Assembly (NCBI GenBank): GCA_016180235.1 | Contig: JACPBQ010000004.1 | Span: 303,674-367,673, forward strand | From: Candidatus Woesearchaeota archaeon | Lineage (GTDB): Archaea; Nanobdellota; Nanobdellia; Woesearchaeales; GW2011-AR4 | Length of the DNA: 64,000 bases | Direction of reading: 5' to 3' | In this document: in pieces, positions 7,451 through 58,178 of the stretch | Layout: each line of letters opens with the position of its first letter | Numbering within the stretch: position 1 is the first letter of the stretch | The notes under the pieces: model-generated | What the model was told of the DNA's origin: nothing | Seen by the model: the letters and a program-made list of their open reading frames with translations, nothing else | Database searches by the model: none | Position numbers and translations under genes: made by a program

Positions 7451-8515
7451 TTAATAATTTAATTTATACCTTAAAATAGCCGCTATGCCTCCAAGGCCGT
7501 TGAGCTTTTTTCCGGCTTCATGCTCGGAGCTTATGATTATCACATCCCCTTTGGCGTTGTCAGCAGCCTTCATTATATATTCTATTTCATTGTATTTATT
7601 TTCTAATCTTTTCTTTTGTATAAACTCATCTGTTACCAATAAAATCCTTACAGCGCCGGCTTCAGCGGCATTTTTAGTCTCTTCAAGGCCGTAAGAAGCC
7701 ATATTGTTTTTTGCTATCTCGGTAAAAAGCTCCTCAACAATCTTGTATTCCTTTGAAATCCTGTCCTGCTTCAATGCTTCTTCAGTTTCAGGCCTTTTCA
7801 AAACCTCATTTATCGCGTTTTCCCCGACAGAAGAGCATGTTGCTAAAATGATCTTATTTTTTAAATCATCATTCCCCAACTGCTTCATCAGGTCTTCTTT
7901 CCAGAAAGCAGGGCTTGCCAAAATAATCTTATTAATCTCATACCTTTTATCATATTCTTCCAGCTGCCTTATTATATCCCTGTAAAAGGTGCTCTCAATT
8001 TTCTGGCCATCGTCTTTTTTCTGCACATTGCCCTTTATTTCCGAAAGCAGCTGGTAGCCGTATTTTTTCATCATGGCAAAGTAGGCTTCCTCGCGGTCAT
8101 GCACACAGATTAATATTTTTGATTGTATTTCTTTAGATGCTTCTTTCAGCTTGTCAATCTGAAATCTCAGCCAATGAGGCTTTATTATGGTTATAACGGA
8201 ATTTTCCTCTATGCTGAACGTATGGTAAGAGCCCAAAGGCACATCTTCAGGGCCTTCTTTTACAATGCCGGAAACCCGCAGCACATTCGAGGTTTTGCCG
8301 AATTCGACCTTTTCAACCTCAATAAGCAGAAAAACGGGCTTTTTTACTGAATCCTGCTTCCTCTGGCCCTCCTGGCCCATCTTTATCTTCCTGAGAGTCC
8401 TTCCTTTGACCAAATCTCTGGAGTCTATTATCTGGTTAAGGTACCACAAGTCATCCATGTTCTCAACTTTTACTTTCGCTTCCCCGTTCTTGAAATCAGA
8501 ATGCATAAGTTTCAT
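7451..8515 (-). CDS. pelA: Pelota (Dom34) ribosome rescue / mRNA surveillance factor
   Basis: 354-aa ORF. The N-terminus MKLMHSDFKNGEAKVKVENMDDLWYLNQII and an eRF1-like three-domain length are typical of archaeal pelota. Confidence 0.85.
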   Translation of the reverse strand: MKLMHSDFKNGEAKVKVENMDDLWYLNQIIDSRDLVKGRTLRKIKMGQEGQRKQDSVKKPVFLLIEVEKVEFGKTSNVLRVSGIVKEGPEDVPLGSYHTFSIEENSVITIIKPHWLRFQIDKLKEASKEIQSKILICVHDREEAYFAMMKKYGYQLLSEIKGNVQKKDDGQKIESTFYRDIIRQLEEYDKRYEINKIILASPAFWKEDLMKQLGNDDLKNKIILATCSSVGENAINEVLKRPETEEALKQDRISKEYKIVEELFTEIAKNNMASYGLEETKNAAEAGAVRILLVTDEFIQKKRLENKYNEIEYIMKAADNAKGDVIIISSEHEAGKKLNGLGGIAAILRYKLNY

Positions 8516-8662
8516 TTTTCAGCATTTTCTCCATAAATTTTATCATGTTTAACCATTATTCAATTTGTCAGGCATTTACGAAATCTTCAATCAAAAGATT
8601 TAAATATAAAACTATTCATTTTCTACACTTAAGTAAAAAAAATTTAAAAAGGTGACCATATT

Positions 8663-9835
8663 TTGAAGAAATCCCAAGGCGGCTTAAATGCAGCCATTTT
8701 GGTGGCAGTCATAGCAGGGCTTATAATTCTGTATATCCTGTTTCTTCCAGAAACCGAGAGAGAAGCATTGCTGGAAAACAAAACAGTCAAAAAATCAACT
8801 GAAGAGAAGGAAGACAAAGATATCCTGCTGAAAGTCTTCCCCAACAGGCTTGAGGAAGAAGAGAATATACAGGACAAAGACATACCAAACATATTCCTCT
8901 TTGAGACCACAAACGCAAAAGTGCTTGAAAGCATAAACCCGTTCATAGCCAGGAAAGGCTGGTTTGACGAGAAAATAAAAACAGCAGCTTTCACCCTGAA
9001 TAACCTTGAAACGACAGACAATGTGATACTTTCATTCAAAGCCAAAAAGCATGACGGCACACTTACAATAACCCTGAATGGAGCGGTTGTCTTTGAGAAT
9101 GAAATTGAGCAGGAGACAGTTGCACCCATAAGCCTGAGAAAAGAACTCCTTAAAGCGGACAACACTCTTGATTTCTCCGTATCTTCAGTAGGCCTTAAGT
9201 TCTGGAAGACAAACGAATACAGCCTAGAAGACGTCAAGATCATAGGAGATATAACCGACAGGAGCAAGCAGGAAAGCAGAAACATATTCACCCTGACGTC
9301 AAAAGAGCTTGCCGGCATAGACGAGGCCGATTTGAGGTTCGTGCCTTACTGCAACAGCGTGGCTGATGTAGGTACACTGGATATCGACATAAACGGAAGG
9401 AATATATTTTCCGCAGTGCCTATATGCGATGATGCGTACAAGCAGCCAATACCGATAGGAATGCTGGATGCAGGAGAAAACAAGATAATATTCAAGACAG
9501 GCAAGGGAAGCTACAGCGTGGAGCAGGTTAAGATAGAATTCAAGGAAAAGGAAGCTGAAAACAAGCTCTATTATTTTGAGGTGAACCAGAGCCAGATAGA
9601 TGAAATTGATGATGGAGACAAAGATGCAATACTAAGGCTTGAGTTCGTTGACGACAAGGAAAACAAGATGGCAGACATCAACATGAACGACCATTTCATA
9701 ACCCTGGATGATGATGAAAGGGTGTTCACAAAGAACGTCAATGACTTTATAGAAGAAGGCAACAATTTTGTTGAGATAAGGCCCAGGACAAGGCTGGACA
9801 TAGTTGAGCTTAGCGTAAGGCTCGAAGATACATAA
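8663..9835 (+). CDS. N-terminally membrane-anchored secreted protein with three ~90-aa internal repeats
   Basis: TTG start preceded by aaaggtga. TM helix AAILVAVIAGLIILYILFL. Three repeats each end in a similar strand (YSLEDVKIIG / YSVEQVKIEF / LDIVELSVRL) and contain an xIxxNG core. Confidence 0.6.
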   Translation: MKKSQGGLNAAILVAVIAGLIILYILFLPETEREALLENKTVKKSTEEKEDKDILLKVFPNRLEEEENIQDKDIPNIFLFETTNAKVLESINPFIARKGWFDEKIKTAAFTLNNLETTDNVILSFKAKKHDGTLTITLNGAVVFENEIEQETVAPISLRKELLKADNTLDFSVSSVGLKFWKTNEYSLEDVKIIGDITDRSKQESRNIFTLTSKELAGIDEADLRFVPYCNSVADVGTLDIDINGRNIFSAVPICDDAYKQPIPIGMLDAGENKIIFKTGKGSYSVEQVKIEFKEKEAENKLYYFEVNQSQIDEIDDGDKDAILRLEFVDDKENKMADINMNDHFITLDDDERVFTKNVNDFIEEGNNFVEIRPRTRLDIVELSVRLEDT

Positions 9836-9879
9836 CAAAAGAGAGGTGGCTTGGGAAGAGTTCTGCCGGATTTGCTTAA

Positions 9880-12429
9880 TTGAAGATGCCAAAAACTTAT
9901 ATTCAGAAATCAAGGAAGGCTTTTAACGGGAAAAAAGGGCAGGCTAACCTTAATCCCGGGTTTGTCACAAGGGTAGCTTCCCATGTCGAAAAGCACACTT
10001 CCGACAAAGGCACTTATTTCCTGGTTTTAGCTTTCATAATATTCCTGATAGACCTGTCAACGACTTTTTTCGGCTTATTTCCCTTAGGGCCAAGGTACGC
10101 GGGATTTGAATGGGTCTGGGGATTTGATTTTGTAAACATTTTAGCAAATATAGTGGCCTCAGGAATCTTCGGGACATTCGCCCTGTTTTTCATAATAGTC
10201 AAGATTGCCAGGAGAGACCTGCAGACATTAGGCGCAGAGGCAGTCAGCTTCGGCTTTTTTGCCATAGTGATGACTTTCTTCATACTCAACAATAACTGGA
10301 TAGGAACCCCAAAGGCAATTATCCATTTTATTTTTATAATAGTCTTTAGCTTTACATTCATAAAGTCCAATGAAGATGCCCCGGCTTTCTATTTTTTCAC
10401 AGCTCTGCTTTTGCTGATAGATTTTTTCGGATACACTTTACTCAGCAATTTAGTGATTTTGAGGTATTTACCTTTTCTCCTGATTTTTGTGATATTTTAC
10501 ATATACGGGAAAACACAAAATGGATGGTCAATAATGTTCGTCATACTTCTGCTGATAGTGCTGTTCATTTTTGCCTACAAGGATGTCAAGGCGCAGGGAG
10601 GTGACTTGTCTTTCATAGCAAAGACTGATGCGCCCACTCTTGAGCAGACCAAAGACGATTTCTTCAAAGGCCTGCAGAACTTCTATAATTCATGGCAGAT
10701 TTCCCTGCAAAGGCAGATAAGGTATGCAATAACCGGAAAAGTGGAGCAAAACCAGTACGAGCCTCTTGGAGTCTATCTTGAGAAAGTAAAATCTGCTGAT
10801 ACCAAGTATTATGAAAATGAAGATGTTGTAATCTGGGGTACTGTAAGGGCAAGAACCCTTGACGACCCGATAAACGTGAAGATTGGATGCTATGTCAGGG
10901 ACGGCAGCAACAGGGTGCAGACAAAAGATGTCGAGCCCCCAACCGCTTTTCCGGTATTTACACTTGAAGAGCAGGACTTTGCATGCACTTTCAAAAACAA
11001 GGACTTTTTAAACATATTAAAATCAGGCTCCAATTCCATAACAGCTTTTGCAGATTTTAATTTCGAGACATTGGCTTTCCTTAAAGTGTATTTCATGGAC
11101 AGGGAAAGATTAAGGGCCATGACCAGGGAAAACCTTGACCCGTTTGACGAATTCGGGATAAAAGACAAAAAGCCTGTGTCAAAATCCACAAACGGGCCAA
11201 CCCATATCGGGATGGAAACAACAAGTCCATTAGTCGGGGTAGGAAGCAGCTATATAACATTCCCGACACTAAGCATGAGCATACAGAGCAACCAGGGATG
11301 GGAGGGCAGGATAAAGAAATTCAGCGAAATAATACTCCTGCTGCCTAAAGGCGTGGGGCTTACAGACCCGCAAACAGACTGCGGAGAGCGGAAATTCACC
11401 GCTTACGATTCCGGGCAGTGCAAAGAAAGTTCCTGCGGGAAAGTCAATAAAGAATGTACAGATGTGTGTGACAAGGGATATCCCGACAGCCAACCCAACA
11501 GCCAATTTGACAGGGATAATTGCAAGGCGTCATGCAATGAGAAGCTGGCAATTTGCCAGAAAGACTGTGATTTCCTGTTCCAGGAGGAAGGGCAGCAATA
11601 TCTCGGCTTTGCATTGGACAAGTCAGACATAGACAAAATAAATACAAAGCTTGCCAAAGATGATTTTAGTGGCAGCGTGCAAAATTTTGAATTCTTCAGA
11701 TGCAAACTGAGCCCAAAACCAGAAGAAGTCCTGGAAAACTCGCCAATAACTACCAAGTCAATAAGGGCCAAGATAAGGTACGATTACACTGTCGAGAAGC
11801 CGGTAGCAGTTAGAATAGAAAAATTAGGGATAGATGAAAGGACTTCAAAAATAGGAGAAGTATCAGTCACAGGAGCATCAGAAACAGAAAATAAGGTAAT
11901 ACAACTGGCAAATTCATTGTCCAGTAACCCGCCTTTGACAGCTTCGATAGCAAATCGGGAAACAAGGTTCGATCATTGCACTGACGGAACATTAATCTGC
12001 GGAACATCCAATCCACAAAATGTAAACTGCAACCCATCCGGAAGCTGCGGAGTAATGCAGATAAACAAAAATGCACATCCCGACTTGTTCACGCTAGGAA
12101 CCACAAGGCTTAATTCGTTTGGATGCCTAACCGGAGAAACTGCATATGACATTGACTGCAACATAAAATCCGGAATAGGTATTCTGCAATCCTATTATAA
12201 CACTTATGGCAATAATAAGGCGCTGTATGAATCCACTGTTGATGCAAAATGCTCTGCTGCTAATAACTTTGAATTGAATGCAAAATATAAAGCATATATA
12301 AATCCGTGGGACAGGGCATTGAGGGCCTACAATGGCTTCGGATGCACTCCTCCGGGAGCAGACGTAAATTATGTGGAGGAAGTAAACAAAATAAAAGATG
12401 CAAGATATTCGGGGAAGGCAGTCTCCTGA
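9880..12429 (+). CDS. Large polytopic membrane protein with ectodomain, Cys-rich stretch and C-terminal SLT-like lytic transglycosylase domain
   Basis: 849-aa ORF. It has roughly 6-8 TM helices in residues ~45-235 and 11 Cys between nt ~11360-11580. The C-terminus carries the SLT motifs NRETRFD (Glu at 11959-11961), CGVMQINKN, NIKSGIGILQSYY and RAYNGFG. Confidence 0.7.
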   Translation: MKMPKTYIQKSRKAFNGKKGQANLNPGFVTRVASHVEKHTSDKGTYFLVLAFIIFLIDLSTTFFGLFPLGPRYAGFEWVWGFDFVNILANIVASGIFGTFALFFIIVKIARRDLQTLGAEAVSFGFFAIVMTFFILNNNWIGTPKAIIHFIFIIVFSFTFIKSNEDAPAFYFFTALLLLIDFFGYTLLSNLVILRYLPFLLIFVIFYIYGKTQNGWSIMFVILLLIVLFIFAYKDVKAQGGDLSFIAKTDAPTLEQTKDDFFKGLQNFYNSWQISLQRQIRYAITGKVEQNQYEPLGVYLEKVKSADTKYYENEDVVIWGTVRARTLDDPINVKIGCYVRDGSNRVQTKDVEPPTAFPVFTLEEQDFACTFKNKDFLNILKSGSNSITAFADFNFETLAFLKVYFMDRERLRAMTRENLDPFDEFGIKDKKPVSKSTNGPTHIGMETTSPLVGVGSSYITFPTLSMSIQSNQGWEGRIKKFSEIILLLPKGVGLTDPQTDCGERKFTAYDSGQCKESSCGKVNKECTDVCDKGYPDSQPNSQFDRDNCKASCNEKLAICQKDCDFLFQEEGQQYLGFALDKSDIDKINTKLAKDDFSGSVQNFEFFRCKLSPKPEEVLENSPITTKSIRAKIRYDYTVEKPVAVRIEKLGIDERTSKIGEVSVTGASETENKVIQLANSLSSNPPLTASIANRETRFDHCTDGTLICGTSNPQNVNCNPSGSCGVMQINKNAHPDLFTLGTTRLNSFGCLTGETAYDIDCNIKSGIGILQSYYNTYGNNKALYESTVDAKCSAANNFELNAKYKAYINPWDRALRAYNGFGCTPPGADVNYVEEVNKIKDARYSGKAVS

Positions 12430-12446
12430 GATAAAATTACACTAAA

Positions 12447-13397
12447 ATGAAAAAAAGCATTATCTTGATTTCAATACTATTGATTTTTATAATAGCCGGC
12501 TGCAAAGGAAGCACAAGCAGCAAGTCAATAACAGATGAAGATGTGAGGAAAGGCGTTGACGGCCTGACAACTGTGTTTATTAATAATGCCCCTCCGGACA
12601 GGGTCTTTGAGCAGAGCGTTTTCCCCATAGGCATCGAGCTCAAGAATAAAGGAGCCTTTGACATCCAAAAGGGCTTTCTCGTGCTTGGGTTCGAGAAGGA
12701 ATATGTAAATGCGGTTTCAGGACAAGAAAAAGAAACATTTGACATAAAAGGAAAATCGATATTCAACCTTAACGGGGACCAGACATTCATAACAGTAAAT
12801 GCAGCGGCAAAGCAGGTAGGCTCGCAAAGCGAAACACATGCATCCACGATATTTGTTACGGCGTGCTACCCTTACAGGACAGTTTTAGGAACGTCAGCCT
12901 GCATCGACACTGACATCTTTGGCCAGCAGCTGAGGAAAAAAGCGTGTCAGGCAAAAGACCTGCAGTTTGACAAGGGGCAGGGAGGCCCTGTAGCAATAAC
13001 AAAAGTAGAGGTAAGGATGCTGCCTGACGCAGACAATGACCCAAACAAAATTATACCCCATTTCATAATATACCTGGAAAACAAGGGAACCGGAGAGGTA
13101 GTTGCTGCAGACAAGGTAGAAGATGTGTGCTCGAAAAAGCCACTTGGATTCAAAGATTTCAATAAGGTAACTGTGAAAGCATCATTATCAGACAAAGAGC
13201 TTAACTGCAATCTTGGAGAAGCAGAAAATTCCGAATCCAGGCTAAGGGAGAAAAAAGATGTTGTAAGATGCACGCTTGCGGAGGGCATAGACAGAAACAG
13301 GGATGCATTCACCTCACCCTTGAAGATAGAGGTCGATTATGGTTACACATTGACAATATCGAAAGATATAACAATAGAAAAGATTTTGACATATTAA
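12447..13397 (+). CDS. Secreted lipobox protein, paralog A (unknown family)
   Basis: Signal peptide plus lipobox IIAGC. Conserved blocks shared with the next gene: ACYPY...ACID, GGPVAITKVE, SPLKIEVDYGYT. Confidence 0.6.
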   Translation: MKKSIILISILLIFIIAGCKGSTSSKSITDEDVRKGVDGLTTVFINNAPPDRVFEQSVFPIGIELKNKGAFDIQKGFLVLGFEKEYVNAVSGQEKETFDIKGKSIFNLNGDQTFITVNAAAKQVGSQSETHASTIFVTACYPYRTVLGTSACIDTDIFGQQLRKKACQAKDLQFDKGQGGPVAITKVEVRMLPDADNDPNKIIPHFIIYLENKGTGEVVAADKVEDVCSKKPLGFKDFNKVTVKASLSDKELNCNLGEAENSESRLREKKDVVRCTLAEGIDRNRDAFTSPLKIEVDYGYTLTISKDITIEKILTY

Positions 13398-13398
13398 T

Positions 13399-14382
13399 AT
13401 GGCCAGAAATACAGGCATAAAGCTCGGAATCTTTTTTTTCATTATACTTTTAATTCTTGTTTCAGGATGCCAGGCAAAAACAGGAAAGCAGAGCAGCAAA
13501 GACCCTTCAGCAGGGACAGATGGCTTAATAATAAATTTCCTGGCAAACAATCCTCAGGATAATTACATAGTGACAGATGAGCAGGAAGAGCCTATCTCCA
13601 TAATCCTGGAGCTTAGAAACAAGGGATCCTATCCAAGAGACAATGATGTTAATGAGCTTAGCAGAGGCCAGGTTTACATAAGCGGCTTTGACGGTAACAT
13701 CATACACATGGAAGAGGCTGAAAAAAGGCTCGACAGGCAGTTCCTGGAAGGGAGAAGCCCGATAAACCCCGAAGGAGGATTTGACACGATTGAATTCAAG
13801 GGAAACATATACACTTCCGGAATTGTCATAGAAAAATATGAGCCGACTATTTTAGCTACTTTGTGCTATCCTTACGCGACAAAAGCAAGCCCTTCAGCCT
13901 GCATAGACCCTTTTCCATTTGATCAGAAACAGAAGAAAGTGTGCAAAATCGGAAGCCAGACCCTGACAAGCCAGGGGGCACCAATAGCAATAACGAGCAT
14001 TGACCAGGAAGCATCAAGCAGCAAGATACAGTTCAAGATAAACCTCAAGAACGCAGGAAAAGGAGACATAATAAAGATAGAGTCACTGGAGAAATGCAAC
14101 CCTACAGGAGGCCAGGCTCTAGAAAGAAATGATTTTGACAGGATAGAGCTGGTAAGGGCAGAAGCCGGATTAGTTCCGTTGAGCTGCGGCCCATTTACAG
14201 AAGGCAATGGCATAATCAGGATGAGCAACGGGCAGGGATTCATAATATGCAGCATCAATAAGGAAGACTACCAGGATACAAAATCAGCATATACGACCCC
14301 ATTAAACCTTGAATTCAGGTATGGCTACAGGACTACTGCTTCAAAGCCGATAAAGATAACAAAGATAACTTCAACAGGCTGA
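13399..14382 (+). CDS. Secreted lipobox protein, paralog B (unknown family)
   Basis: Signal peptide plus lipobox LVSGC. Blocks LCYPY...ACID, QGAPIAITSID and TPLNLEFRYGYR are collinear with paralog A. The start is 1 nt after the upstream stop. Confidence 0.6.
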   Translation: MARNTGIKLGIFFFIILLILVSGCQAKTGKQSSKDPSAGTDGLIINFLANNPQDNYIVTDEQEEPISIILELRNKGSYPRDNDVNELSRGQVYISGFDGNIIHMEEAEKRLDRQFLEGRSPINPEGGFDTIEFKGNIYTSGIVIEKYEPTILATLCYPYATKASPSACIDPFPFDQKQKKVCKIGSQTLTSQGAPIAITSIDQEASSSKIQFKINLKNAGKGDIIKIESLEKCNPTGGQALERNDFDRIELVRAEAGLVPLSCGPFTEGNGIIRMSNGQGFIICSINKEDYQDTKSAYTTPLNLEFRYGYRTTASKPIKITKITSTG

Positions 14383-14608
14383 TAGCTAAGCTAAATGACA
14401 CAAATATTCCGATTTTTAAGCATAAAGTTTTTGTACGAAAACTTTATATACTAGTTCTGTATGAATTATTTTGTTTTGACTATAGAGTTAAAAATTAGTG
14501 AAACTGAAAAGCAATGAAAGTACTGCAGTGAGGTAAAAAAGCGTAACATATTAATAGTAGTATCAATCCTTTTGTCCCCTTACAATTAAAAAAAGGGGGT
14601 AGGTTTTT

Positions 14609-15303
14609 ATGATAGTAAAAGAAGAGTTTTTGAGCAAGCTAAGAAGATATTTTTCTTTGAATCTGTACGAAGTAAAGATATGGACTGCTCTGCTCTCAAG
14701 AGGAGTAAGCACAGCAGGAGAGCTTTCTGACATAGCCAATGTTCCAAGAAGCAGGAGCTATGACATGATGCAAAAGAAGCGGTAAAAAGGCTTGAAGATC
14801 TTAAAAAAACAGACATAGTGAATGAGCTCAATACTCTGCATACGCAAGGTGTTGAATTAGTTGAGCCCGCAGATCTTTCCGGCTCTTTGAAGGGAAGGCA
14901 CAACCTCTACAATCATTTGGAGCTTACGATAAGGAATGCTGAAAATTCTGTTGACATAATGACCACGAGCCAGGGTCTTATGAGGAAGATAGAAGGCTTC
15001 AAGCCAACTTTTGAGAAATTAAAGAAGAGGGGGGTAAAAATAAGGATTGCAGCTCCCTTGACAAAAGAAACAATGGCAGCAGTCAAGGATATAGGCTCTG
15101 TAGCAGAGATAAGGAACACTGACTCAAAGGCAAGGTTTGTCATTGTTGACGGCAAGGAATTGATATTCATGATAATGGATGACCAGGAAGTCCATCCGAC
15201 TTACGATGTAGGGATATGGGTGAACAGCCCATTCTTCTCCAGCGCACTGGAAAGCCTGTTCAGCACTGCATGGAAAGGAATGAAGACTACAGCAACAAAA
15301 TAA
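14609..15303 (+). pseudogene. TrmB-family transcriptional regulator disrupted by an out-of-frame internal deletion
   Basis: A 58-codon frame from the ATG at 14609 encodes a wHTH up to VPRSRSYD and stops at 14783-14785. The remainder (AKEAVKRLEDLKK... to 15303) is open in another frame from 14764. Confidence 0.6.
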
Positions 15304-15347
15304 AATAATTATCTTTCTTTTTCCTTTATTTATCTTAAACAAAAGAA

Positions 15348-15355
15348 TTATAAAA
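15348..15355 (+). promoter_or_regulatory. TATA-box-like element upstream of transketolase genes
   Basis: ttataaaa lies 25 nt upstream of the ATG at 15381. Confidence 0.4.
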
Positions 15356-15380
15356 TCATAGCCCATTCTATACAGTTAAA

Positions 15381-16205
15381 ATGGATGATAAAAAATTCAC
15401 AGAGCTGAAACAGATAGCAAACGAAATAAGGAAGGAGTCCATAATAATGACCCACAGGGCGCAATCCGGGCATCCAGGAGGCTCTTTGTCTGAAGCTGAC
15501 ATATTGGCAGCTTTGTATTTCTACAAATTGAACATAAATCCGAAAAAGCCTGACTGGAATGAAAGGGACAGGTTTGTACTGAGCAAGGGGCATGCGTCTC
15601 CCGGCTACTATGCTGCCCTGGCACTGAAGGGATTTTTCCCAAAAAAAGAGCTGGAGAATTTCAGGAAGATAAACAGCATGCTCCAGGGGCATCCGGAACT
15701 GAGCACGCCAGGAGTTGATTTTGCCGGTGGCAGCCTAGGACAGGGGGTTCCAGTTGCAAACGGAATGGCGCTTGCAGGAAAATTGGACAAAAAAAATTAC
15801 AAAGTCTATGTTTTGATTGGAGACGGAGAAGCGCAGGAAGGCGTTGTATGGGAAGCTTCTATGTCGGCCGCTTTTTATAAATTGGATAATTTAGTCTATA
15901 TCCTGGATAAAAACCAGGTTCAGCAGACAGGCTTTACAAAAAATATTATGGATATAGGCAATGCAGCAGAAAAATGGAAAGCATTCGACTTTAATGTAAT
16001 TGAAATAGATGGGCATGATATGGAGCAAATAATCAATGCATTGGATAAAGCAGACAAAAACAAAGGAAGGCCGACAATGATTGTTGCCAACACAATAAAG
16101 GGCAAAGGAGTTTCATTCATGGAATTAAATCACAAATTCCATGGAAAAGCGCCCAATGACGGGGAATTCAGGAAAGCAATGGAAGAGCTGAACAGAAATG
16201 GTTGA
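15381..16205 (+). CDS. tkt: Transketolase, N-terminal (TPP-binding) subunit
   Basis: 274-aa ORF with SGHPGGSLS and the GDGEAQEG TPP-binding motif. The split form is typical of archaea. Confidence 0.9.
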   Translation: MDDKKFTELKQIANEIRKESIIMTHRAQSGHPGGSLSEADILAALYFYKLNINPKKPDWNERDRFVLSKGHASPGYYAALALKGFFPKKELENFRKINSMLQGHPELSTPGVDFAGGSLGQGVPVANGMALAGKLDKKNYKVYVLIGDGEAQEGVVWEASMSAAFYKLDNLVYILDKNQVQQTGFTKNIMDIGNAAEKWKAFDFNVIEIDGHDMEQIINALDKADKNKGRPTMIVANTIKGKGVSFMELNHKFHGKAPNDGEFRKAMEELNRNG

Positions 16206-16575
16206 TATAGAATTTCAATACTATGATAAAACTACATGTAAAAGGTGCATATCCACGGATAAATCCGTGAAATTGACATTAAGAGAACTGAAAAAAGCAA
16301 TAAAAAACACCAACATCAGAATCAATTTTAAAGAAAGGAAATTGCCAGAATCAAAAATCCATCTTTCCCCATCCATCCTGATTGATGGCAAAGATGCTGA
16401 AAAAGTATTGAATAAAAATTCAAAGTTAAAGACTAATGAATGCTCAGATTGCTGTCATTTAACAAGCCAACCTGTTGTAAATTGCAGAACTTTCAACTAC
16501 AAAGGGGAAAATTATGATTATATGCCCAAGGAAATGATTACGGAAGCTATAAATCTTGTATTAAAGACCAGATGA
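16198..16575 (+). CDS. Small Cys-containing thioredoxin-like protein resembling DUF2703
   Basis: 125-aa ORF overlapping the tkt-N stop by 8 nt. It has CKRC near the N-terminus, SPSILIDG, CSDCC, and CRTFNYKGENYDYMPKEMI at the C-terminus. Confidence 0.55.
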   Translation: MVDIEFQYYDKTTCKRCISTDKSVKLTLRELKKAIKNTNIRINFKERKLPESKIHLSPSILIDGKDAEKVLNKNSKLKTNECSDCCHLTSQPVVNCRTFNYKGENYDYMPKEMITEAINLVLKTR

Positions 16576-16594
16576 ATTTTATTAATCGACTAAA

Positions 16595-17551
16595 ATGGCA
16601 GGCATTGTAAAGGAAGAAAAAGGAAAAGAAGCGACAAGAGACGGCTATGGAAAAGGCTTGGTAAAGGCAGGCATCAAAAACAATAATGTCGTTGCTCTGG
16701 ACGCTGATTTGAGCGACAGCACAAGAAGCGAATGGTTCAGGGAAAAATTCCCAGACAGGTTCTTCAGCATTGGCATCGCAGAGCAGGATATGATAGGGAC
16801 AGCTGCGGGATTATCTTTGTCGGGAAAGATTCCGTATGCAAGCACTTTTGCAATATTTTCTGAAAGGGCATTCGAATTGACAAGGAACATCATTTCAAGA
16901 AACAAACTGAATGTCAAGATTGCAGGAAGCCATGCAGGACTTTCAACAGGCGAAGATGGAAAAAGCGCGCAGGCAATTGAAGACATAGGCATATACAGAT
17001 GCCTGCCTAATATGGTTGTGATACAGCCTGCTGATGCTGTTGAAGCAGAAAAAGCTGTTGTTGCTTTATTAGACTATAAAGGCCCAAGCTACATGAGAAT
17101 ATTAAGAAATCCTTTGCCAATAATACACGATGAAAATTACAAATATAAAATCGGCGAAGGAGAGATATTAAGGAAAGGCAAGAACGCAGTCATATTCGCT
17201 ACTGGAACAATGGTCCATGAATCATTGAAAGTTGCGGATATTTTAAAAGAAAATAAGACTGATGTTTATGTAGTTAATATCCATACAATAAAGCCGATAG
17301 ACAAGAATCTAATAATAAATTTAGCAAAAAAGACAAACAATGTAATAACTGCAGAGGATCATAATATCATCGGAGGCCTTGGAAGCGCTGTTGCAGAAGT
17401 TTTGTCAGAGAATTATCCCTGCAGAATGCTCAGGATAGGCATGGAAGACAAATACGGAGAGTCAGGAAAGCCCGATGAACTGTATGAGAAGTATGGGTTG
17501 AATGCAGCTCATGTTGCAAGAAAGGTCAAGGATTTTATTAAAAAGAAATAA
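16595..17551 (+). CDS. tkt: Transketolase, C-terminal (pyrimidine-binding) subunit
   Basis: 318-aa ORF with the IGIAEQDMIGTAAGLS motif and the typical length of the C-terminal half. Confidence 0.9.
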   Translation: MAGIVKEEKGKEATRDGYGKGLVKAGIKNNNVVALDADLSDSTRSEWFREKFPDRFFSIGIAEQDMIGTAAGLSLSGKIPYASTFAIFSERAFELTRNIISRNKLNVKIAGSHAGLSTGEDGKSAQAIEDIGIYRCLPNMVVIQPADAVEAEKAVVALLDYKGPSYMRILRNPLPIIHDENYKYKIGEGEILRKGKNAVIFATGTMVHESLKVADILKENKTDVYVVNIHTIKPIDKNLIINLAKKTNNVITAEDHNIIGGLGSAVAEVLSENYPCRMLRIGMEDKYGESGKPDELYEKYGLNAAHVARKVKDFIKKK

Positions 17552-17635
17552 ATTATTAAAGCCAATAAAAACTGATACAATAATTTTAAAAACAATAATA
17601 AATTAACAAATATAAACAAAAATAATAAATCAAAA

Positions 17636-18292
17636 ATGAAAATCTTCCTCGACACGGCAAATTTAGCCGAAATTAAAAAAGCAGTAGATATAGGAATTTG
17701 TGATGGAGTTACAACCAATCCAACTTTGATCATGAAAGAAGGCAAAGACTATAAAAAGACACTGAAAGAAATCTGCTCAATTGTGAAAGGCCCTGTGAGC
17801 GCTGAAACTGTCTCTTTGAATGCAGAGGGAATGGTCAGGGAAGGAAAGGAATTTGCAAAAATAGCAAAAAATATTGTTGTCAAGGTTACAATGACTCCGG
17901 AGGGGATGAAGGCATGCAGGATGCTTACAAAATCGGGAATTAAAGTCAATACAACCTTGGTTTTTTCCGCTAACCAGGCCTTGCTGGCAGCGAAAGCAGG
18001 AACTTATCTTGTAAGCCCTTTTATTGGAAGACTGGATGACATTGGGGAGAAAGGCACTGAATTGATAAGGGAAATAAGGCAGATTTATGACAATTACGGC
18101 TTCAAATCACTTATTCTTGCAGCGAGCATAAGAAATGTGGAGCATGTCAAGGAAGTTGCGATGATGGGAGCGGACATAGCGACTATGCCGTTCAAAGTCT
18201 ATGAGCAGTTGTTTAATCATGCTTTGACGGATAAAGGGATTAAAATGTTTTTGGATGACTGGCAAAAACTGCAGAAGCAGCTTAAGAAATAA
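17636..18292 (+). CDS. tal: Transaldolase / fructose-6-phosphate aldolase (short type 3B)
   Basis: 218-aa ORF with [23 protein letters not shown] and VVKVTMT (Schiff-base lysine context). Confidence 0.9.
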
Positions 18293-18514: not shown

Positions 18515-19513
18515 CTAACCTCTTAAATTTTCTTTTGTCGCATCAGTAAAATCCTTCCAATCTTCCCTTACAGCCAAAATAATGTTTTTTCTATCATCTA
18601 TTGCCTTTGCTTCGTTGAATTTTGCCTTGTTCTGTTCTGTCTTTTCAATAAAATCAGCAACAACGGCTTTATCAACAAGCCCTCTGGCCATAAAATCCTC
18701 TGCCCTCTCCTCCAAATCATAGAAATGCCATTTTACCAGGCTATAGACCTTATTTTTTAATTCCCTCACGCATACAGACTTGTTTTCTCCGGTCAATTTG
18801 TTGCATACTTCCTTTTCTTCCTGTATTGTTGCAAGGTTCATCGACCTTTTTGCACAGGAAACCCTTTCATCACCTATCGGGAATTTCCAGCATGTCTGGA
18901 CTGATTTGTAGCGGGCAACGCAGATGCCCCTCTCGCTGCCTGATAAAACCCGGCATTCTTCAGGCAAGTAATAAAGCTCCAATTCCTCTTCCTGATCCTC
19001 TTCCTCCAAATCCAACCTGCATGAAATTCTTTCTTTTAAAGTGCCAAGATTGCCGCATTTTAATTTTGCCTCATCCTGTTTTTCCTCTTCTGCAGTATTT
19101 TCCGAGATTTTTTTACCAGCACCCGGCATGTCTTTAACATCTTTCTCGTTGACAATCCTTATATTTGCAACTTTTCCTTTTATATTTATAAGGTTAAAAT
19201 TTATATCTGCAAGATTATTGCCGTTTAAATCTATAAAATTGTCGCCTTCTTCCAATTGGAAGGATAAAGAGCCGAAAGCTACAGTGGCATTGCCCTCTAC
19301 ATTTATCTTAAGATTGTATCTGGTGCCGTTTTTTAGGGAGAATTTTTGGGAATAATCCTGGTTTGCAAGTATATTCACAGAATCCCTTGAGCCAAAGCCC
19401 AAGCCTGAGCTGCTGGAGCCTCCACCACCGCCTCCAGCGGCAAATACATATACCGGAAGCACTAATAAAACAACCATCCCAAAAGCCATTTTTCCAATAA
19501 TCTCCTTTTTCAT
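18515..19513 (-). CDS. Secreted Cys-rich protein, unknown function
   Basis: 332-aa ORF. An N-terminal hydrophobic signal is followed by a GGGGGGSSSS linker, a beta-rich segment, then 9 Cys in an acidic/helical C-terminal half. Confidence 0.5.
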   Translation of the reverse strand: MKKEIIGKMAFGMVVLLVLPVYVFAAGGGGGGSSSSGLGFGSRDSVNILANQDYSQKFSLKNGTRYNLKINVEGNATVAFGSLSFQLEEGDNFIDLNGNNLADINFNLINIKGKVANIRIVNEKDVKDMPGAGKKISENTAEEEKQDEAKLKCGNLGTLKERISCRLDLEEEDQEEELELYYLPEECRVLSGSERGICVARYKSVQTCWKFPIGDERVSCAKRSMNLATIQEEKEVCNKLTGENKSVCVRELKNKVYSLVKWHFYDLEERAEDFMARGLVDKAVVADFIEKTEQNKAKFNEAKAIDDRKNIILAVREDWKDFTDATKENLRG

Positions 19514-24465: not shown

Positions 24466-24957
24466 ATGAGAACAAAATCCCGGCTTAATAAAAGAGGTGT
24501 AAGCCCGTTAATTGCAACGGTACTGCTGATTTCTTTTGCAGTAGCTCTTGGCTCAGTTGTACTGAACTGGGGGAAGAACCTTGACATATCCAAGCCAGGG
24601 GATTCATGCTCCGGGGCAGCCATAAAAATAAGAAACATAGGAGATGGAGAGGTCTGCTATTCCGGCTCAGGCTCAAATGCAGCCATCAGATTCATACTCG
24701 ATAATTCCGGCAGCGTTGATATAGCTGGACTTGGCATATGGATAGTCGGGGATAAAGGAACTAAACTGCTGGACCTTGACAATATAGAGATAAAATCAGG
24801 GGAATTACTGGATGTGAAAGATGACAGGGTAAAATATGACTTCAACGCTTACGGCAGGATAAACCACATACAGTTCATACCTAAAGTAAAGACTCAAAAT
24901 GGGGTTGACATATGCCCAAAAAATTCCGTAAAAGCAGAGAAAATAGCAATATGCTAA
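24466..24957 (+). CDS. Archaeal type IV pilin-like protein (class III signal peptide)
   Basis: The N-terminus KRGVSPLIATVLLISFAVALG matches the archaeal pilin N-terminal motif (K/R-G-x-S-P-[VL]-I-A-T-V-L-L). The remainder is beta-rich with 4 Cys. Confidence 0.65.
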   Translation: MRTKSRLNKRGVSPLIATVLLISFAVALGSVVLNWGKNLDISKPGDSCSGAAIKIRNIGDGEVCYSGSGSNAAIRFILDNSGSVDIAGLGIWIVGDKGTKLLDLDNIEIKSGELLDVKDDRVKYDFNAYGRINHIQFIPKVKTQNGVDICPKNSVKAEKIAIC

Positions 24958-56228: not shown

Positions 56229-57482
56229 ATGGCCGAGATATTAAAAATAATACTTTGGATAGCTTATTTCATATCACTGTATTTTGCAGTATTCTGGTTC
56301 ATGGTCCTGCTGGAGGACAAGCCAAAAAGAAAGGCAAAGAAGCTCCAAAAGCTCCCTTTTGTCAGCATAGTCATACCTGCATTCAACGAGGAGAAGAAGA
56401 TAAGGCCGACAGTAAAATCAGTTTTGGAGCTGGAATATCCAAGGGACAAATATGAAATAATAGTGGTCAATGACGGGAGCACGGACAAGACACAGGAAAT
56501 AACAAAAAGCATAATCAATGAATACAAAAGCCATGATATAAAGCTGATAAGCCAAACCAATAAAGGCAAGGGAGCGGCATTAAACAAAGGCCTGAGGAAG
56601 GCAAAAGGAGAATATTTCATATGCCTGGATGCGGATTCTTACGTCTCCAGGGATGCTTTAAGCAAAACGCTGCCGCACTTCACAAATGAAAAGATAGCTG
56701 CTGTCCTGCCATTACTGAAAGTAAGCAACCCAAAGACATTGCTGCAGAAGATGCAGTGGCTTGAATATATAGTCAACATGTTCTACAAGGAGCTGATGGG
56801 CAAGCTTGACTGCGTGCATGTCGCTCCAGGGCCTTTCAGCATATACAGAAAATCCATACTGGGAAAAATAGGAGGATTTGACGAAAAAAACCTCACAGAA
56901 GACCTGGAAATAACGCTCAGGCTGCAGAAGCACAACTACAGGATTGTGCAGCTTCTTAACACTGATGTCTACACGATAGCCCCATCAAGCTTCAGGGAAC
57001 TGTACAGGCAGAGGAACAGATGGTACAAGGGATCGGTCATGAACGTGATAACATACAGGAGGATGATGTTCAACAAAAATTACGGGGATTTTGGCATAAT
57101 ACAGATGCCCACAATCATAATCTCGGGCTTAATCGCAATAATAATCTTCATATCGCTGGCTTATTACGCCCTGAAGCCGCAGCTGCAGTACCTTTACAAC
57201 CTCAGCTTTGTCAATTTTGACCTTATCACATTGATCAAGAACTTTACCCTCAACCTGCATTACCTTGACTTAAACTATATGACATTCCTGCTGGTAGCTG
57301 TCATGCTCGGGGTCTCATTGTACATGATAAAAAAATCGCATGCAAAGACCAATGAGCATAAAATCACAAAATACGGAATATTTTCATTTTTATGCTACCT
57401 CATACTGTATTTTTTCATACTGGGACTGGTATGGATAGGGGTTGTTTTTGACCTGATAACTGGCAAGAGGCAGAAATGGTGA
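56229..57482 (+). CDS. Membrane-embedded family 2 glycosyltransferase with processive-synthase motif
   Basis: VVNDGSTD, LDADS, TEDLE and QRNRWYKG (the Q-x-x-R-W motif of cellulose/chitin/PNAG-type synthases), with N- and C-terminal TM helices. Confidence 0.85.
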   Translation: MAEILKIILWIAYFISLYFAVFWFMVLLEDKPKRKAKKLQKLPFVSIVIPAFNEEKKIRPTVKSVLELEYPRDKYEIIVVNDGSTDKTQEITKSIINEYKSHDIKLISQTNKGKGAALNKGLRKAKGEYFICLDADSYVSRDALSKTLPHFTNEKIAAVLPLLKVSNPKTLLQKMQWLEYIVNMFYKELMGKLDCVHVAPGPFSIYRKSILGKIGGFDEKNLTEDLEITLRLQKHNYRIVQLLNTDVYTIAPSSFRELYRQRNRWYKGSVMNVITYRRMMFNKNYGDFGIIQMPTIIISGLIAIIIFISLAYYALKPQLQYLYNLSFVNFDLITLIKNFTLNLHYLDLNYMTFLLVAVMLGVSLYMIKKSHAKTNEHKITKYGIFSFLCYLILYFFILGLVWIGVVFDLITGKRQKW

Positions 57483-58168: not shown

Positions 58169-58178
58169 TAAAGGTAAC

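What the first reader, a model, noticed from the sequence alone, without database searches (positions are those of the whole stretch)
8663..14382. Co-directional four-gene envelope module built from secreted domains I cannot assign to any named family
Four + strand genes are separated by only 44, 17 and 1 nt. (i) The first is a 390-aa N-terminally anchored protein made of three ~90-aa repeats. (ii) The second is an 849-aa protein with about 6-8 N-terminal TM helices, a large ectodomain, an 11-Cys stretch (nt ~11360-11580) and a C-terminal SLT-like muramidase domain. (iii, iv) The last two are paralogous lipobox proteins. The ectodomain of (ii) ends with IRAKIRYDYTVEKPVAVRIEKL. This is the same terminal strand motif that closes both lipoproteins (LKIEVDYGYTLTISKDITIEKI and LNLEFRYGYRTTASKPIKITKI). 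Three consecutive genes therefore appear to carry one shared uncharacterised domain. In an archaeon with otherwise minimal gene content, this looks like a dedicated cell-surface apparatus. It might serve contact with, or attack on, a peptidoglycan-bearing partner cell. This is my best candidate for an undescribed system in the window.
Basis: partly seen in the sequence, partly recalled or inferred. Interest (0 to 1): 0.75.

Follow-up and report, generated by a model that had tools for sequence, protein, structure and literature searches.

The report
Conserved Woesearchaeal cell-surface complex operon
These four genes are one copy of an operon kept by nearly all Woesearchaeota-type DPANN archaea; it encodes membrane-anchored surface proteins from families with no name, and here one of them carries an enzyme that cuts bacterial cell wall, which suggests direct physical contact with bacteria.

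Summary
Four co-directional genes (gaps 44, 17 and 1 nt) encode the following:
- g1: a bitopic protein with three related ~90-aa beta-rich repeats.
- g2: a 7-TM protein with a two-lobed beta-sandwich ectodomain, a 9-Cys helical hairpin and a C-terminal GH23/SLT domain with intact catalytic motifs.
- g3 and g4: two paralogous lipobox proteins.

Structure prediction and profile comparison show that the whole g2 ectodomain, not only its last strand, has the same fold as the lipoproteins.

The order g1-g2-lipoproteins recurs in 40 of 44 sufficiently long loci from species-representative Woesearchaeota/Nanoarchaeota genomes. It usually sits beside pelota and diverges in step with pelota. The lipoproteins form three ancient orthologous groups that keep their position in the operon; this genome has groups 1 and 2 only.

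No Pfam, NCBIfam, PADLOC, PHROG or PDB family matches anything except the SLT domain. That C-terminal "payload" varies: SLT, amidase, glucosaminidase, M23, fn3, crystallin, unknown or absent. About one third of orthologues carry a murein hydrolase.

Best reading: a vertically inherited, membrane-tethered hetero-oligomeric surface platform that here presents a murein-cleaving enzyme to bacteria in contact. Assembly and target are inferred, not shown.

The parts
8599..8606 (+). TATA-box-like TTTAAATA, preceded by a purine-rich BRE-like stretch, in the 147-nt pelota/g1 divergent intergenic region; candidate operon promoter (inferred)
   Evidence: Sequence read directly. The sigma-70 scan is not applicable to archaea.
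8663..9835 (+). g1: 390-aa bitopic (N-in, C-out) protein and the most conserved member of the module
   Evidence: ORF. 550 homologues, the listed ones 61-86% identical with near-fixed length. Median 49% identity across 35 species, against 61% for pelota. No Pfam, NCBIfam or PDB match.
8672..8758 (+). g1 N-terminal membrane anchor (aa 4-32) with invariant Q5, N9, L13, Y24 and P29
   Evidence: Hydropathy; alignment A3.
8960..9256 (+). g1 repeat 1 (aa ~100-198), containing the invariant FW.TNEY motif
   Evidence: hhalign R1-R2 E 4.2e-8, prob 95%. Weak CBM-like Pfam hits in many family members (DUF4979 in 14 of 44).
9275..9550 (+). g1 repeat 2 (aa ~205-296)
   Evidence: hhalign R1-R2 E 4.2e-8; R2-R3 E 1.6e-4.
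9560..9832 (+). g1 repeat 3 (aa ~300-390)
   Evidence: hhalign R2-R3 E 1.6e-4, 83 columns.
9880..12429 (+). g2: 849-aa polytopic protein (7-TM anchor, ectodomain, payload)
   Evidence: ORF; 99 homologues; AF2 mean pLDDT 88.
10006..10593 (+). g2 seven-helix membrane domain (aa 43-238). It is the least conserved part but has near-invariant D58, G75, H149 and D181 at the outer-leaflet level
   Evidence: AF2 helices; conservation; no Pfam or PDB match.
10768..11820 (+). g2 ectodomain (aa 297-647): a two-lobed beta-sandwich joined by two 25-residue strands, with the same fold as g3 and g4
   Evidence: AF2; Foldseek gives only generic tandem Ig-like hits; homology to the lipoproteins.
11380..11580 (+). 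Cys-rich helical hairpin inserted in lobe 2 (aa 501-567; 9 Cys; helices 511-533 and 541-567)
   Evidence: Cys positions; AF2 secondary structure.
11881..12408 (+). g2 C-terminal GH23/SLT lytic-transglycosylase-like domain (aa 668-843). Candidate catalytic Glu is E694 (nt 11959-11961); GVMQIN at aa 724-729; RAYNG at aa 815-819
   Evidence: PF01464 at 24.3 bits on the isolated tail, cut-off 21.3. Profile against PDB: EtgA 1.4e-4, MltC 2.8e-4. Motifs. Foldseek MltE prob 1.0.
12447..13397 (+). g3: lipoprotein of orthologous group 1 (LpA), with lipobox IAGC (Cys19, nt 12501-12503)
   Evidence: AF2 pLDDT 90. Best hit is the position-1 gene in 33 of 33 three-paralogue loci.
13399..14382 (+). g4: lipoprotein of orthologous group 2 (LpB), with lipobox VSGC (Cys24, nt 13468-13470)
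   Evidence: Best hit is the position-2 gene in 31 of 33 three-paralogue loci.
14383..14480 (+). T-run-rich spacer after g4; probable end of the transcription unit (inferred)
   Evidence: Sequence read directly.

Best explanation
The four genes are this genome's copy of a vertically inherited operon of Woesearchaeales-type DPANN archaea. Its full form is g1 - g2 - LpA - LpB - LpC; here LpC is missing from the locus.

Inferred mechanism:
- All products sit on the outer face of the cytoplasmic membrane. g1 is held by an N-terminal helix, g2 by a 7-helix bundle, and the Lp proteins by a lipid on the lipobox cysteine.
- The g2 ectodomain and the Lp proteins are ancient paralogues with the same elongated two-lobed beta-sandwich. 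They pack into a hetero-oligomeric stalk or cage of fixed composition.
- g1, with three CBM-like beta-sandwich repeats, acts as a partner or glycan-binding subunit.
- This platform holds a variable C-terminal payload of g2 away from the membrane.
- In this genome the payload is a GH23 lytic transglycosylase with an intact Glu/GVMQ/AYNG site. Archaea make no murein, so its substrate should be bacterial wall. The enzyme stays tethered to the cell, so it can act only on a bacterium, or wall debris, in direct contact. The purpose would be attachment, feeding or killing.

Shown: gene order and its conservation, paralogy, folds, lipoboxes, SLT motifs and payload swapping. Inferred: co-transcription, physical assembly, lipidation, enzyme activity and target.
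For: - Conserved order in 40 of 44 informative loci from different species; also in L001 and L003.
- Divergence tracks pelota: Spearman 0.85 for g1 and 0.87 for g3.
- The three lipoprotein orthogroups keep their operon position: 989/1056, 998/1054 and 990/1051 best hits on the diagonal. This fits non-redundant subunits and not recent duplication.
- g2 ectodomain and the lipoproteins share a fold.
- A signal peptide ending in Cys is present in all 134 homologues. Archaeal lipobox lipidation is established, and AliA is reported in DPANN (PMC12462473).
- The SLT domain passes the Pfam cut-off and keeps its catalytic motifs.
- SLT, Amidase_2, Glucosaminidase and M23 occur at the same C-terminal position in different lineages, a repeated fusion of murein-directed enzymes to this one scaffold.
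- The family is large: the lipoprotein profile finds 3,051 cluster representatives at 50% identity.
- The module is absent from viral contigs.
Against: - Only about one third of orthologues carry a recognisable murein hydrolase, and 9 of 47 have no tail. Wall attack therefore cannot be the core function.
- No multimer model, expression data or protein-protein evidence was obtainable.
- g1 has no structure model.
- Conservation close to housekeeping level (g1 49% against pelota 61%) is unusual for host-interaction proteins, which normally evolve fast.
- The near-invariant D58/H149/D181 in the membrane domain hints at a catalytic or transport role that this explanation does not use.
- Hosts of Woesearchaeota are unknown.
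Confidence: 0.45

Rival explanations
1. Housekeeping envelope scaffold. The complex is a structural element of the Woesearchaeal cell envelope, for example a spacer or anchor for an S-layer or pseudo-periplasm, or a shape or division element. The murein hydrolase tail is a secondary add-on for scavenging wall fragments.
For: Near-universal presence, single locus, fixed position beside pelota, and divergence in step with pelota. Fixed, ancient subunit set. The core is retained without any payload in 9 of 47 species. Conservation is much higher than is typical for host-contact proteins.
Against: It does not explain why four different classes of murein hydrolase were fused to this particular protein. 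A tethered enzyme is a poor scavenger of diffusible substrate. There is no lattice-forming or S-layer signature in any library.
Confidence: 0.25
2. Uptake or processing machine. The 7-TM domain of g2 is an enzyme or conduit, with its D58/H149/D181 site at the outer leaflet. The lipoproteins and g1 capture a substrate, such as muropeptides, glycans or host lipids, and hand it over. A more speculative variant is that g2 processes its own lipoprotein partners.
For: Three polar residues are at least 94% conserved in an otherwise fast-evolving membrane domain, and all lie on the outer side in the AF2 model. The arrangement of lipoproteins plus a polytopic partner recalls binding-protein-dependent systems. 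CBM-like weak hits in g1.
Against: The membrane domain is the least conserved part (median 30% identity). It has no fold or sequence match to any transporter or intramembrane enzyme. The presenilin hit (E 0.026) does not align the conserved Asp or His and is compositional, and the TgpA_N hits are marginal. No ATPase or energy-coupling gene is in the operon. The beta-sandwiches show no obvious ligand pocket class.
Confidence: 0.12
3. Self-directed wall remodelling. The organism has a murein-like wall of its own, and the module is an elongasome- or divisome-like assembly with an autolysin.
For: SLT, amidase, glucosaminidase and M23 are the classic autolysin set. The best PDB relatives of the SLT domain are 'specialised' transglycosylases that open a cell's own wall (EtgA).
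Against: By established knowledge archaea lack murein. No mur or PBP genes are seen in the 64-kb window. Two thirds of orthologues lack any hydrolase. The literature treats these enzymes as directed at bacteria (PMC8204110, PMC9723730).
Confidence: 0.05
4. No system: unrelated generic secreted adhesin genes that happen to be adjacent.
For: Each fold on its own is generic (Ig-like, CBM-like) and Foldseek TM-scores are low.
Against: Order and composition are conserved across at least 40 species, orthogroups are position-specific, and the genes are paralogous to one another.
Confidence: 0.02

Closest known systems
Large extracellular SLT-domain proteins of Woesearchaeota/Pacearchaeota (fam00969 of Castelle et al. 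2021, PMC8204110; AR20 'murein transglycosylase'; GH23 in Vigneron et al. 2022, PMC9723730)
   Same: DPANN archaeal, surface-exposed, GH23/SLT domain, proposed to bind or degrade bacterial wall. g2 is very probably one of the proteins those studies counted.
   Different: Those reports treat a single enzyme-bearing protein. They do not describe the 7-TM anchor, the conserved ectodomain, the g1 partner, the three paralogous lipoproteins, the conserved operon, or the fact that the SLT domain is an exchangeable tail absent from most orthologues. I could not verify membership of fam00969 itself.
Specialised lytic transglycosylases of secretion machines (EtgA of T3SS, VirB1 type) and MltC/Slt70 (GH23)
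   Same: Same catalytic domain with E-S/T, GLMQ and AYNxG motifs. EtgA and MltC are the best PDB sequence matches.
   Different: The bacterial enzymes are periplasmic or lipoproteins and act on the cell's own wall. Here the domain is the C-terminal tail of a 7-TM archaeal protein in an organism without murein, and it has extra Cys pairs.
Polymorphic effector systems with exchangeable C-terminal murein hydrolases (T6SS Tae/Tge-type effectors, CDI/Rhs-type C-terminal toxins)
   Same: A conserved N-terminal 'carrier' with C-terminal domains swapped among amidase, muramidase/glucosaminidase and peptidase classes. The SLT domain shows no co-divergence with the carrier (Spearman 0.05).
   Different: There is no secretion ATPase, needle or immunity gene. 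The downstream genes are conserved paralogues of the carrier whatever the payload. The payload stays tethered and is often absent.
Tandem Ig-like surface modules (CARDB/DUF11 repeats of archaeal surface proteins; integrin calf/thigh, complement MG and transglutaminase beta-barrel domains)
   Same: Beta-sandwich fold class. Motifs of the 'v.v.N.G.g.v' type occur in both lobes. These are the best Foldseek hits.
   Different: TM-scores are only 0.15-0.25. There is no Pfam CARDB match (2 of 52 members at E 0.11). The unit is a fixed pair of lobes stitched by two 24-25-residue strands, with conserved Cys pairs and a lipobox.
Archaeal lipobox lipoproteins (Hong et al. 2025, PMC12462473)
   Same: N-terminal signal peptide with [LVI][ASTVI][GAS]C. 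Thioether-archaeol anchoring by AliA is reported for Euryarchaeota, and AliA is reported as present in DPANN.
   Different: Known archaeal lipoproteins are mostly solute-binding proteins. These form a new family, present as three fixed paralogues in an operon with a TM-anchored fourth paralogue.

Membership tests
GH23 / SLT lytic transglycosylase (PF01464) - g2 C-terminal domain | Profile score above the curated cut-off | tested here: met
   24.3 bits (cut-off 21.3) when the tail aa 650-849 is scanned alone, but only 19.0 bits in the context of the full protein. 14 of 38 orthologous tails match, best E 1.9e-14.
GH23 / SLT lytic transglycosylase (PF01464) - g2 C-terminal domain | Catalytic Glu in an E-S/T motif, plus the GLMQ and AYNxG motifs | tested here: met
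   ANRE694T, G724VMQIN and RAY817NG. These positions are invariant or at least 90% conserved in 14 orthologues and align to the E-S and GIMQIN of EtgA.
GH23 / SLT lytic transglycosylase (PF01464) - g2 C-terminal domain | Lysozyme-like alpha-helical fold | tested here: met
   AF2 gives an all-helical domain at aa 668-843 with pLDDT >90. Foldseek hits MltE 6ghy_A with prob 1.00 and TM 0.45 on the target.
GH23 / SLT lytic transglycosylase (PF01464) - g2 C-terminal domain | Cleavage of murein glycan strands | not testable with these tools
   Needs a zymogram or sacculus digestion with the purified tail and an E694Q control.
Lipobox lipoproteins (g3, g4) | Signal peptide ending in [LVI][ASTVI][GAS]C | tested here: met
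   IAGC (Cys19) and VSGC (Cys24). Cys19 is invariant in A2. 118 of 134 homologues fit the pattern, and by eye the other 16 also have Cys directly after the h-region.
Lipobox lipoproteins (g3, g4) | Lipidation machinery present (AliA) and actual thioether-lipid attachment | not tested
   AliA is reported in DPANN (PMC12462473), but I did not look for it. Only 64 kb of a 437-kb contig is available. Lipidation needs biochemistry.
   2 of 52 family members at E 0.11. Only fold-class resemblance in Foldseek, with TM 0.2-0.25.
Type IV pilin-like (class III signal peptide) proteins - g1 | Class III signal: charged n-region, [KR][GA] cleavage site, then a hydrophobic helix (the QxSxExxxL type of PF04021) | tested here: inconclusive
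   g1 has K-[AS]-Q5-G-G-x-N9-A-A-I-L13 with Q5, N9 and L13 invariant. The spacing resembles QxSxExxxL (recalled from the Pfam description). No PF04021 or Pilin_N hit appears even at E 10. No TFF ATPase or platform gene is in the operon.
Secretion or conjugation machines with a dedicated transglycosylase (T3SS/T4SS/T7SS, archaeal TFF) | ATPase and platform/channel components encoded with the module | tested here: not met
   In the Pfam-annotated loci L001 and L003 the module's neighbours are pelota, ACS and RFC only. My module HMMs show the same gene order in about 40 further loci. A marginal TrsH/TraH hit (E 0.07) covers the signal peptide only.
Polymorphic toxin/effector systems | Variable C-terminal toxin followed by a cognate immunity gene | tested here: not met
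   The variable tail is present. The downstream genes, however, are three conserved orthogroups independent of the tail type.
Anti-phage defence systems / phage proteins | Match to PADLOC or PHROG families, or presence on viral contigs | tested here: not met
   Only chance-level hits. No relative in IMG/VR.

The most novel reading that the evidence does not exclude
The module is the lineage-defining contact organelle of Woesearchaeales. It is a membrane-tethered hetero-oligomeric stalk made of four ancient paralogues plus a glycan-binding partner. It docks the archaeon onto bacterial hosts and carries an exchangeable wall-breaching head (lytic transglycosylase, amidase, glucosaminidase or M23). 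The D-H-D site of its 7-TM base acts in transfer or processing of material taken from the host. This would be the first described archaeal apparatus for contact-dependent attack on, or parasitism of, bacteria.
Probability: 0.2. Interest if true: 0.85.

Novelty: categorically new. Interest (0 to 1): 0.62.

Why it matters
Woesearchaeota are among the most abundant and least understood DPANN archaea. None is in pure culture, and whether they live on bacteria, on archaea or freely is an open question.

Earlier genome surveys noted 'large SLT-domain proteins' as a hint of dealings with bacteria. This analysis shows that such a protein is one subunit of a conserved, vertically inherited, multi-subunit membrane module built from three protein families with no name. 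The lipoprotein family alone has more than 3,000 cluster representatives at 50% identity. The murein hydrolase is an exchangeable head on that module.

This gives concrete, testable targets:
- enzyme assay of the tail;
- multimer modelling;
- antibodies or cryo-ET to locate the contact site;
- use of the payload type as a predictor of host type.

Even if the module turns out to be a structural envelope element, it would be the first defined envelope complex of this lineage and a large new family of archaeal lipoproteins.

Tried and rejected
1. Library searches. Pfam, NCBIfam, PADLOC and PHROGs on all four proteins, and Pfam on every member of the g1, lipoprotein and TM-domain alignments. Only SLT is real. 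The hits to FliC-like_3rd, ZinT, TrsH, RTas337, Csx19, TgpA_N and Mpo1 are isolated and below cut-offs.

2. PDB sequence and profile searches of g1, the lipoproteins and the TM domain found nothing. A Presenilin-1 hit of the full g2 profile (E 0.026) looked interesting given the two conserved Asp. I rejected it after reading the alignment: it has low posterior probabilities, and neither the conserved Asp nor the His is matched to catalytic residues.

3. Foldseek of g2 and g3 against PDB, and of g3 against BFVD, gave only generic tandem Ig-like matches with TM 0.1-0.25. I therefore did not file the shared unit under CARDB, integrin or MG.

4. A single-sequence PDB search of the SLT tail found nothing. 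The profile search was needed.

5. The first hhalign with the raw alignments gave prob 0.4%. The comparison became informative only with 132 lipoproteins and 51 trimmed ectodomains.

6. The g1 repeats were not significant with the shallow alignment but were with a more diverse one.

The permitted alignment is too shallow (Neff about 2), so I spent the last job on g3. As a result g1 and the isolated TM domain have no fold search.

8. Test for co-divergence of the SLT domain and the ectodomain: no correlation (Spearman 0.05). This is inconclusive at about 31% identity. It fits domain swapping but does not prove it.

9. The sigma-70 and intrinsic-terminator scan is not meaningful for an archaeon, and the counts are at shuffle level.

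10. A viral-contig scan found no relatives.
Full report
**1. What is in the sequence**

| Gene | Coordinates | Length |
|---|---|---|
| g1 | 8663-9835 | 390 aa |
| g2 | 9880-12429 | 849 aa |
| g3 | 12447-13397 | 316 aa |
| g4 | 13399-14382 | 327 aa |

- The gaps are 44, 17 and 1 nt.
- pelota and acetyl-CoA synthetase lie upstream on the opposite strand.
- A TrmB-type regulator, split transketolase and transaldolase lie downstream.
- The 147-nt pelota/g1 spacer contains TTTAAATA at 8599-8606 and a GGTGA 8 nt before the TTG start of g1.
- T-runs follow g4.
- No gap inside the module is long enough for an obvious promoter. One transcription unit is likely but not shown.

**2. g1**

- g1 has a single hydrophobic segment at aa 4-32. 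This is too long for a cleaved Sec signal, so it is most simply an N-in/C-out anchor.
- The helix is very conserved, with Q5, N9, L13, Y24 and P29 invariant.
- The three repeats are real. With a diverse alignment, R1-R2 gives hhalign E 4.2e-8 (prob 95%) and R2-R3 gives E 1.6e-4. R1-R3 is linked only through R2. A shallower alignment had not shown this.
- No library names the family.
- Weak hits recur across members to beta-sandwich carbohydrate-binding-type families: DUF4979 in 14 of 44, plus DUF6805, PL4 CBM-like and the sialidase N-terminal domain. These suggest a CBM-like jelly-roll, which is a lead and not an assignment.
- I could not model g1.

**3. g2**

AlphaFold2 with 89 homologues gives mean pLDDT 88. 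The model contains:
- a disordered, basic N-terminus;
- seven membrane helices (aa 43-238);
- a long helix (aa 254-281);
- a beta-rich ectodomain (aa 297-647) made of two sandwich lobes joined by two 25-residue strands (383-407 and 623-647);
- a helical hairpin (511-533 and 541-567) inserted in lobe 2;
- an all-helical C-terminal domain (aa 668-843).

The 'Cys stretch' is this hairpin. It carries 9 Cys, not 11 (C501, 514, 519, 526, 530, 548, 552, 559, 563). The spacing fits four disulfide rungs between the two helices.

Evidence that the C-terminal domain is a GH23/SLT domain:
- The isolated tail passes the Pfam cut-off (24.3 against 21.3 bits). The full protein scored just below it.
- A 14-sequence profile hits EtgA (1.4e-4), MltC (2.8e-4), g-type lysozyme and Slt70.
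- E694-T, GVMQIN and RAYNG are conserved.
- Foldseek finds MltE.

The membrane domain has no sequence match anywhere and could not be searched by fold on its own. It is the least conserved part of the module (median 30% identity). Even so, D58, G75, H149 and D181 are at least 94% conserved. In the N-in model all three polar residues lie at the outer-leaflet level. This is unexplained.

**4. g3, g4 and the shared domain**

- g3 and g4 are paralogues (29% identity, E 8e-30) with lipoboxes IAGC and VSGC.
- A signal peptide ending in Cys is present in all 134 full-length homologues from other genomes.
- The g3 model (pLDDT 90, pTM 0.81) is again two beta-sandwich lobes with two 24-residue strands (130-153 and 288-311).

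The homology in fact covers the whole ectodomain:
- hhalign of 132 lipoproteins against 51 ectodomains is colinear over 245 columns (P 0.003).
- The score of 30.1 exceeds all 30 block-shuffles (maximum 26.5) and the reversed control of 15.7.
- The lipoprotein HMM hits lobe 2 of some ectodomains at E 8e-6 in a 51-sequence search.
- When the sequence alignment is used to superpose the two independent DSSP strings, 62% of positions agree, against 28-47% for shifted registers. The long strands coincide to within a residue.
- Both models draw the same generic Foldseek hits: integrin alpha legs, complement MG domains, transglutaminase/protein 4.2 barrels, RbmA and HSV gC. TM-scores are only 0.1-0.25. 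The top hit in the viral library is a DUF11 protein.

The unit therefore belongs to the Ig-like/CARDB-like fold class but to no named family.

**5. Recurrence elsewhere**

All three families are confined, as far as names are available, to Woesearchaeota, Nanoarchaeota (Nanobdellota) and 'DPANN' metagenome-assembled genomes. NCBI locus tags already showed adjacency (V1831_04450/55/60; IH934_02070/80/85).

A scan of GTDB species representatives with the g1 profile returned 68 loci:
- 44 have at least 4.5 kb downstream of g1.
- In 40 of these, g2 follows directly with lipoprotein genes after it.
- 2 more keep the lipoproteins but have an inserted or unrecognised gene in between.
- 2 are rearranged.

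pelota is the divergent upstream neighbour in at least 35 loci. Identity of g1, the g2 ectodomain and g3 to the window proteins tracks that of pelota (Spearman 0.85, 0.69 and 0.87). This indicates vertical inheritance.

Median identities across the 35 loci are:

| Protein | Median identity |
|---|---|
| pelota | 61% |
| g1 | 49% |
| g2 ectodomain | 39.5% |
| g3 | 39% |
| g4 | 34% |
| g2 TM domain | 30% |

The modal locus has three lipoprotein genes (33 loci). They form three orthologous groups that keep their rank in the operon. Best cross-genome hits fall on the diagonal in 989/1056, 998/1054 and 990/1051 cases. g3 is group 1 and g4 is group 2. Group 3 is absent from this locus and from the closest complete relative, L007. 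In L007 the same TrmB-transketolase block follows g4, as it does here.

The lipoprotein profile finds 3,051 cluster representatives (50% identity clusters) in 1.84 billion proteins. It finds none on viral contigs.

**6. The variable tail**

Among 47 complete g2 orthologues from different species:
- 9 end at the last strand of the ectodomain;
- 38 have tails of at least 50 aa;
- 14 of those tails are SLT, and one of these also has Amidase_2;
- 1 is Glucosaminidase, 4 carry fn3 and 1 a beta/gamma-crystallin;
- about 17 match no Pfam family.

The wider metagenomic set adds Peptidase_M23. Identity among SLT tails does not correlate with identity among the attached ectodomains (Spearman 0.05). This fits exchange of tails but is weak evidence at this level of divergence.

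The murein hydrolase is therefore an accessory head on a conserved carrier. Enzymes of several unrelated catalytic classes, all directed at bacterial murein, have ended up at this one position.

**7. Interpretation**

Shown:
- a conserved, vertically inherited module;
- four paralogous two-lobed ectodomains, one TM-anchored and up to three lipobox-anchored;
- a conserved bitopic partner with three repeats;
- an exchangeable C-terminal domain, which here is a catalytically plausible GH23 enzyme.

Inferred:
- The fixed set and order of ancient paralogues argues for non-redundant subunits of one assembly and against recent duplication or variation.
- All parts are tethered to the outer face of the membrane, so a hetero-oligomeric stalk or cage is the simplest picture.
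- A tethered murein hydrolase in a murein-less organism can only act on a bacterium, or wall debris, in contact.

I therefore favour a contact platform that in this genome presents a wall-cutting enzyme (confidence 0.45). The rivals are:
- a housekeeping envelope scaffold with an add-on enzyme (0.25);
- an uptake or processing device that uses the D-H-D site (0.12);
- self-wall remodelling (0.05);
- chance adjacency (0.02).

The main argument against the favoured reading is that two thirds of orthologues lack a recognisable hydrolase, and that conservation is close to housekeeping level.

**8. Relation to what is known**

[quoted passage not shown] Those papers do not describe, in the passages I retrieved:
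- the carrier architecture;
- the g1 and lipoprotein partners;
- the operon;
- the exchangeability of the enzyme.

My literature searches found no description of the module. Archaeal lipobox lipidation is now experimentally grounded, and AliA is reported in DPANN (PMC12462473). This makes the lipoprotein prediction reasonable.

Membership tests for CARDB, TFF/pilin, secretion machines, polymorphic toxin-immunity pairs, defence systems and phage proteins were not met or were inconclusive. Only the SLT domain and the lipobox class are met.

**9. Verdict**

- The 'dedicated surface apparatus' reading is supported by synteny and paralogy.
- The 'attack on peptidoglycan-bearing partners' reading is plausible for this genome but cannot be the core function.
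- As a system it matches no described kind, although its parts use familiar folds.
- Function remains unproven, so I score interest at 0.62.

Noticed in passing
window 14609-15303 (+): The TrmB-family regulator downstream of the module is split by an in-frame stop. A 58-aa HTH piece (PF01978, E 9.5e-10) ends near 14785, and a 161-aa C-terminal piece (PF11495, E 2.5e-7) starts at 14818. Relatives have one gene of 271-276 aa (L001, L003, L007). This could be a pseudogene, a recoding event or an assembly error.
   Followed up: partly
window 14383-18292, compared with L001 and L003: In most relatives ACS, TrmB, transketolase and transaldolase lie beyond pelota on the other strand, and the RFC small subunit follows the lipoproteins. 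In the window, and in L007, TrmB-TKT-TAL follow g4 directly. This is a local rearrangement whose breakpoint coincides with the missing third lipoprotein (LpC).
   Followed up: partly
window 10051-10422 (g2 aa 58, 75, 149, 181): D58, G75, H149 and D181 are at least 94% conserved in an otherwise poorly conserved 7-TM domain. They all lie at the outer-leaflet level in the AF2 model, which makes them a candidate metal or catalytic site. No family match was found.
   Followed up: partly
window 11380-11580 (g2 aa 501-567): The Cys-rich insert is predicted as two antiparallel helices of 23-27 residues. The Cys spacing is C514/519/526/530 and C548/552/559/563, as in a disulfide-zipped alpha-hairpin projecting from lobe 2. 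The shortest orthologues (for example L064 and L065, about 490 aa) appear too short to contain it.
   Followed up: partly
window 8672-8701 (g1 aa 4-13): The g1 N-terminus K-[AS]-Q-G-G-x-N-A-A-I-L has Q5, N9 and L13 invariant. The spacing recalls the archaeal class III signal motif QxSxExxxL. No Pfam hit supports this.
   Followed up: partly
window 24466-24957 (+): A 163-aa protein has a typical archaeal type IV pilin-like start (MRTKSRLNKRG|VSPLIATVLLISF). It has no Pfam hit at E 10.
   Followed up: no
window 56229-59600 (+): Three co-directional genes: a membrane GT2 (chitin-synthase-like, 417 aa, E 1e-39), a 230-aa TM protein, and a GT-C type Alg9/PMT_2-like glycosyltransferase (473 aa). This may be a surface glycan synthesis cluster.
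   Followed up: partly
window 18515-19513 (-): A 332-aa secreted protein has a signal peptide followed by a Gly/Ser-rich run. It has no family match.
   Followed up: no
P0021 / P0054 / P0251 (NCBI locus tags CMO94_02970, CMO94_02050, CMO94_02055): One MAG appears to carry two g2 paralogues (753 aa and 1389 aa), and the 1389-aa copy is tagged next to a g1 gene. Either some genomes have two modules or the bin is mixed.
   Followed up: no
L039 and L060 (g1 at ~8000-9180 and ~7500-8700): These are the two loci where g1 is not followed by g2. A lipoprotein-family gene lies 3-5 kb upstream instead. They are rearranged versions of the module.
   Followed up: no
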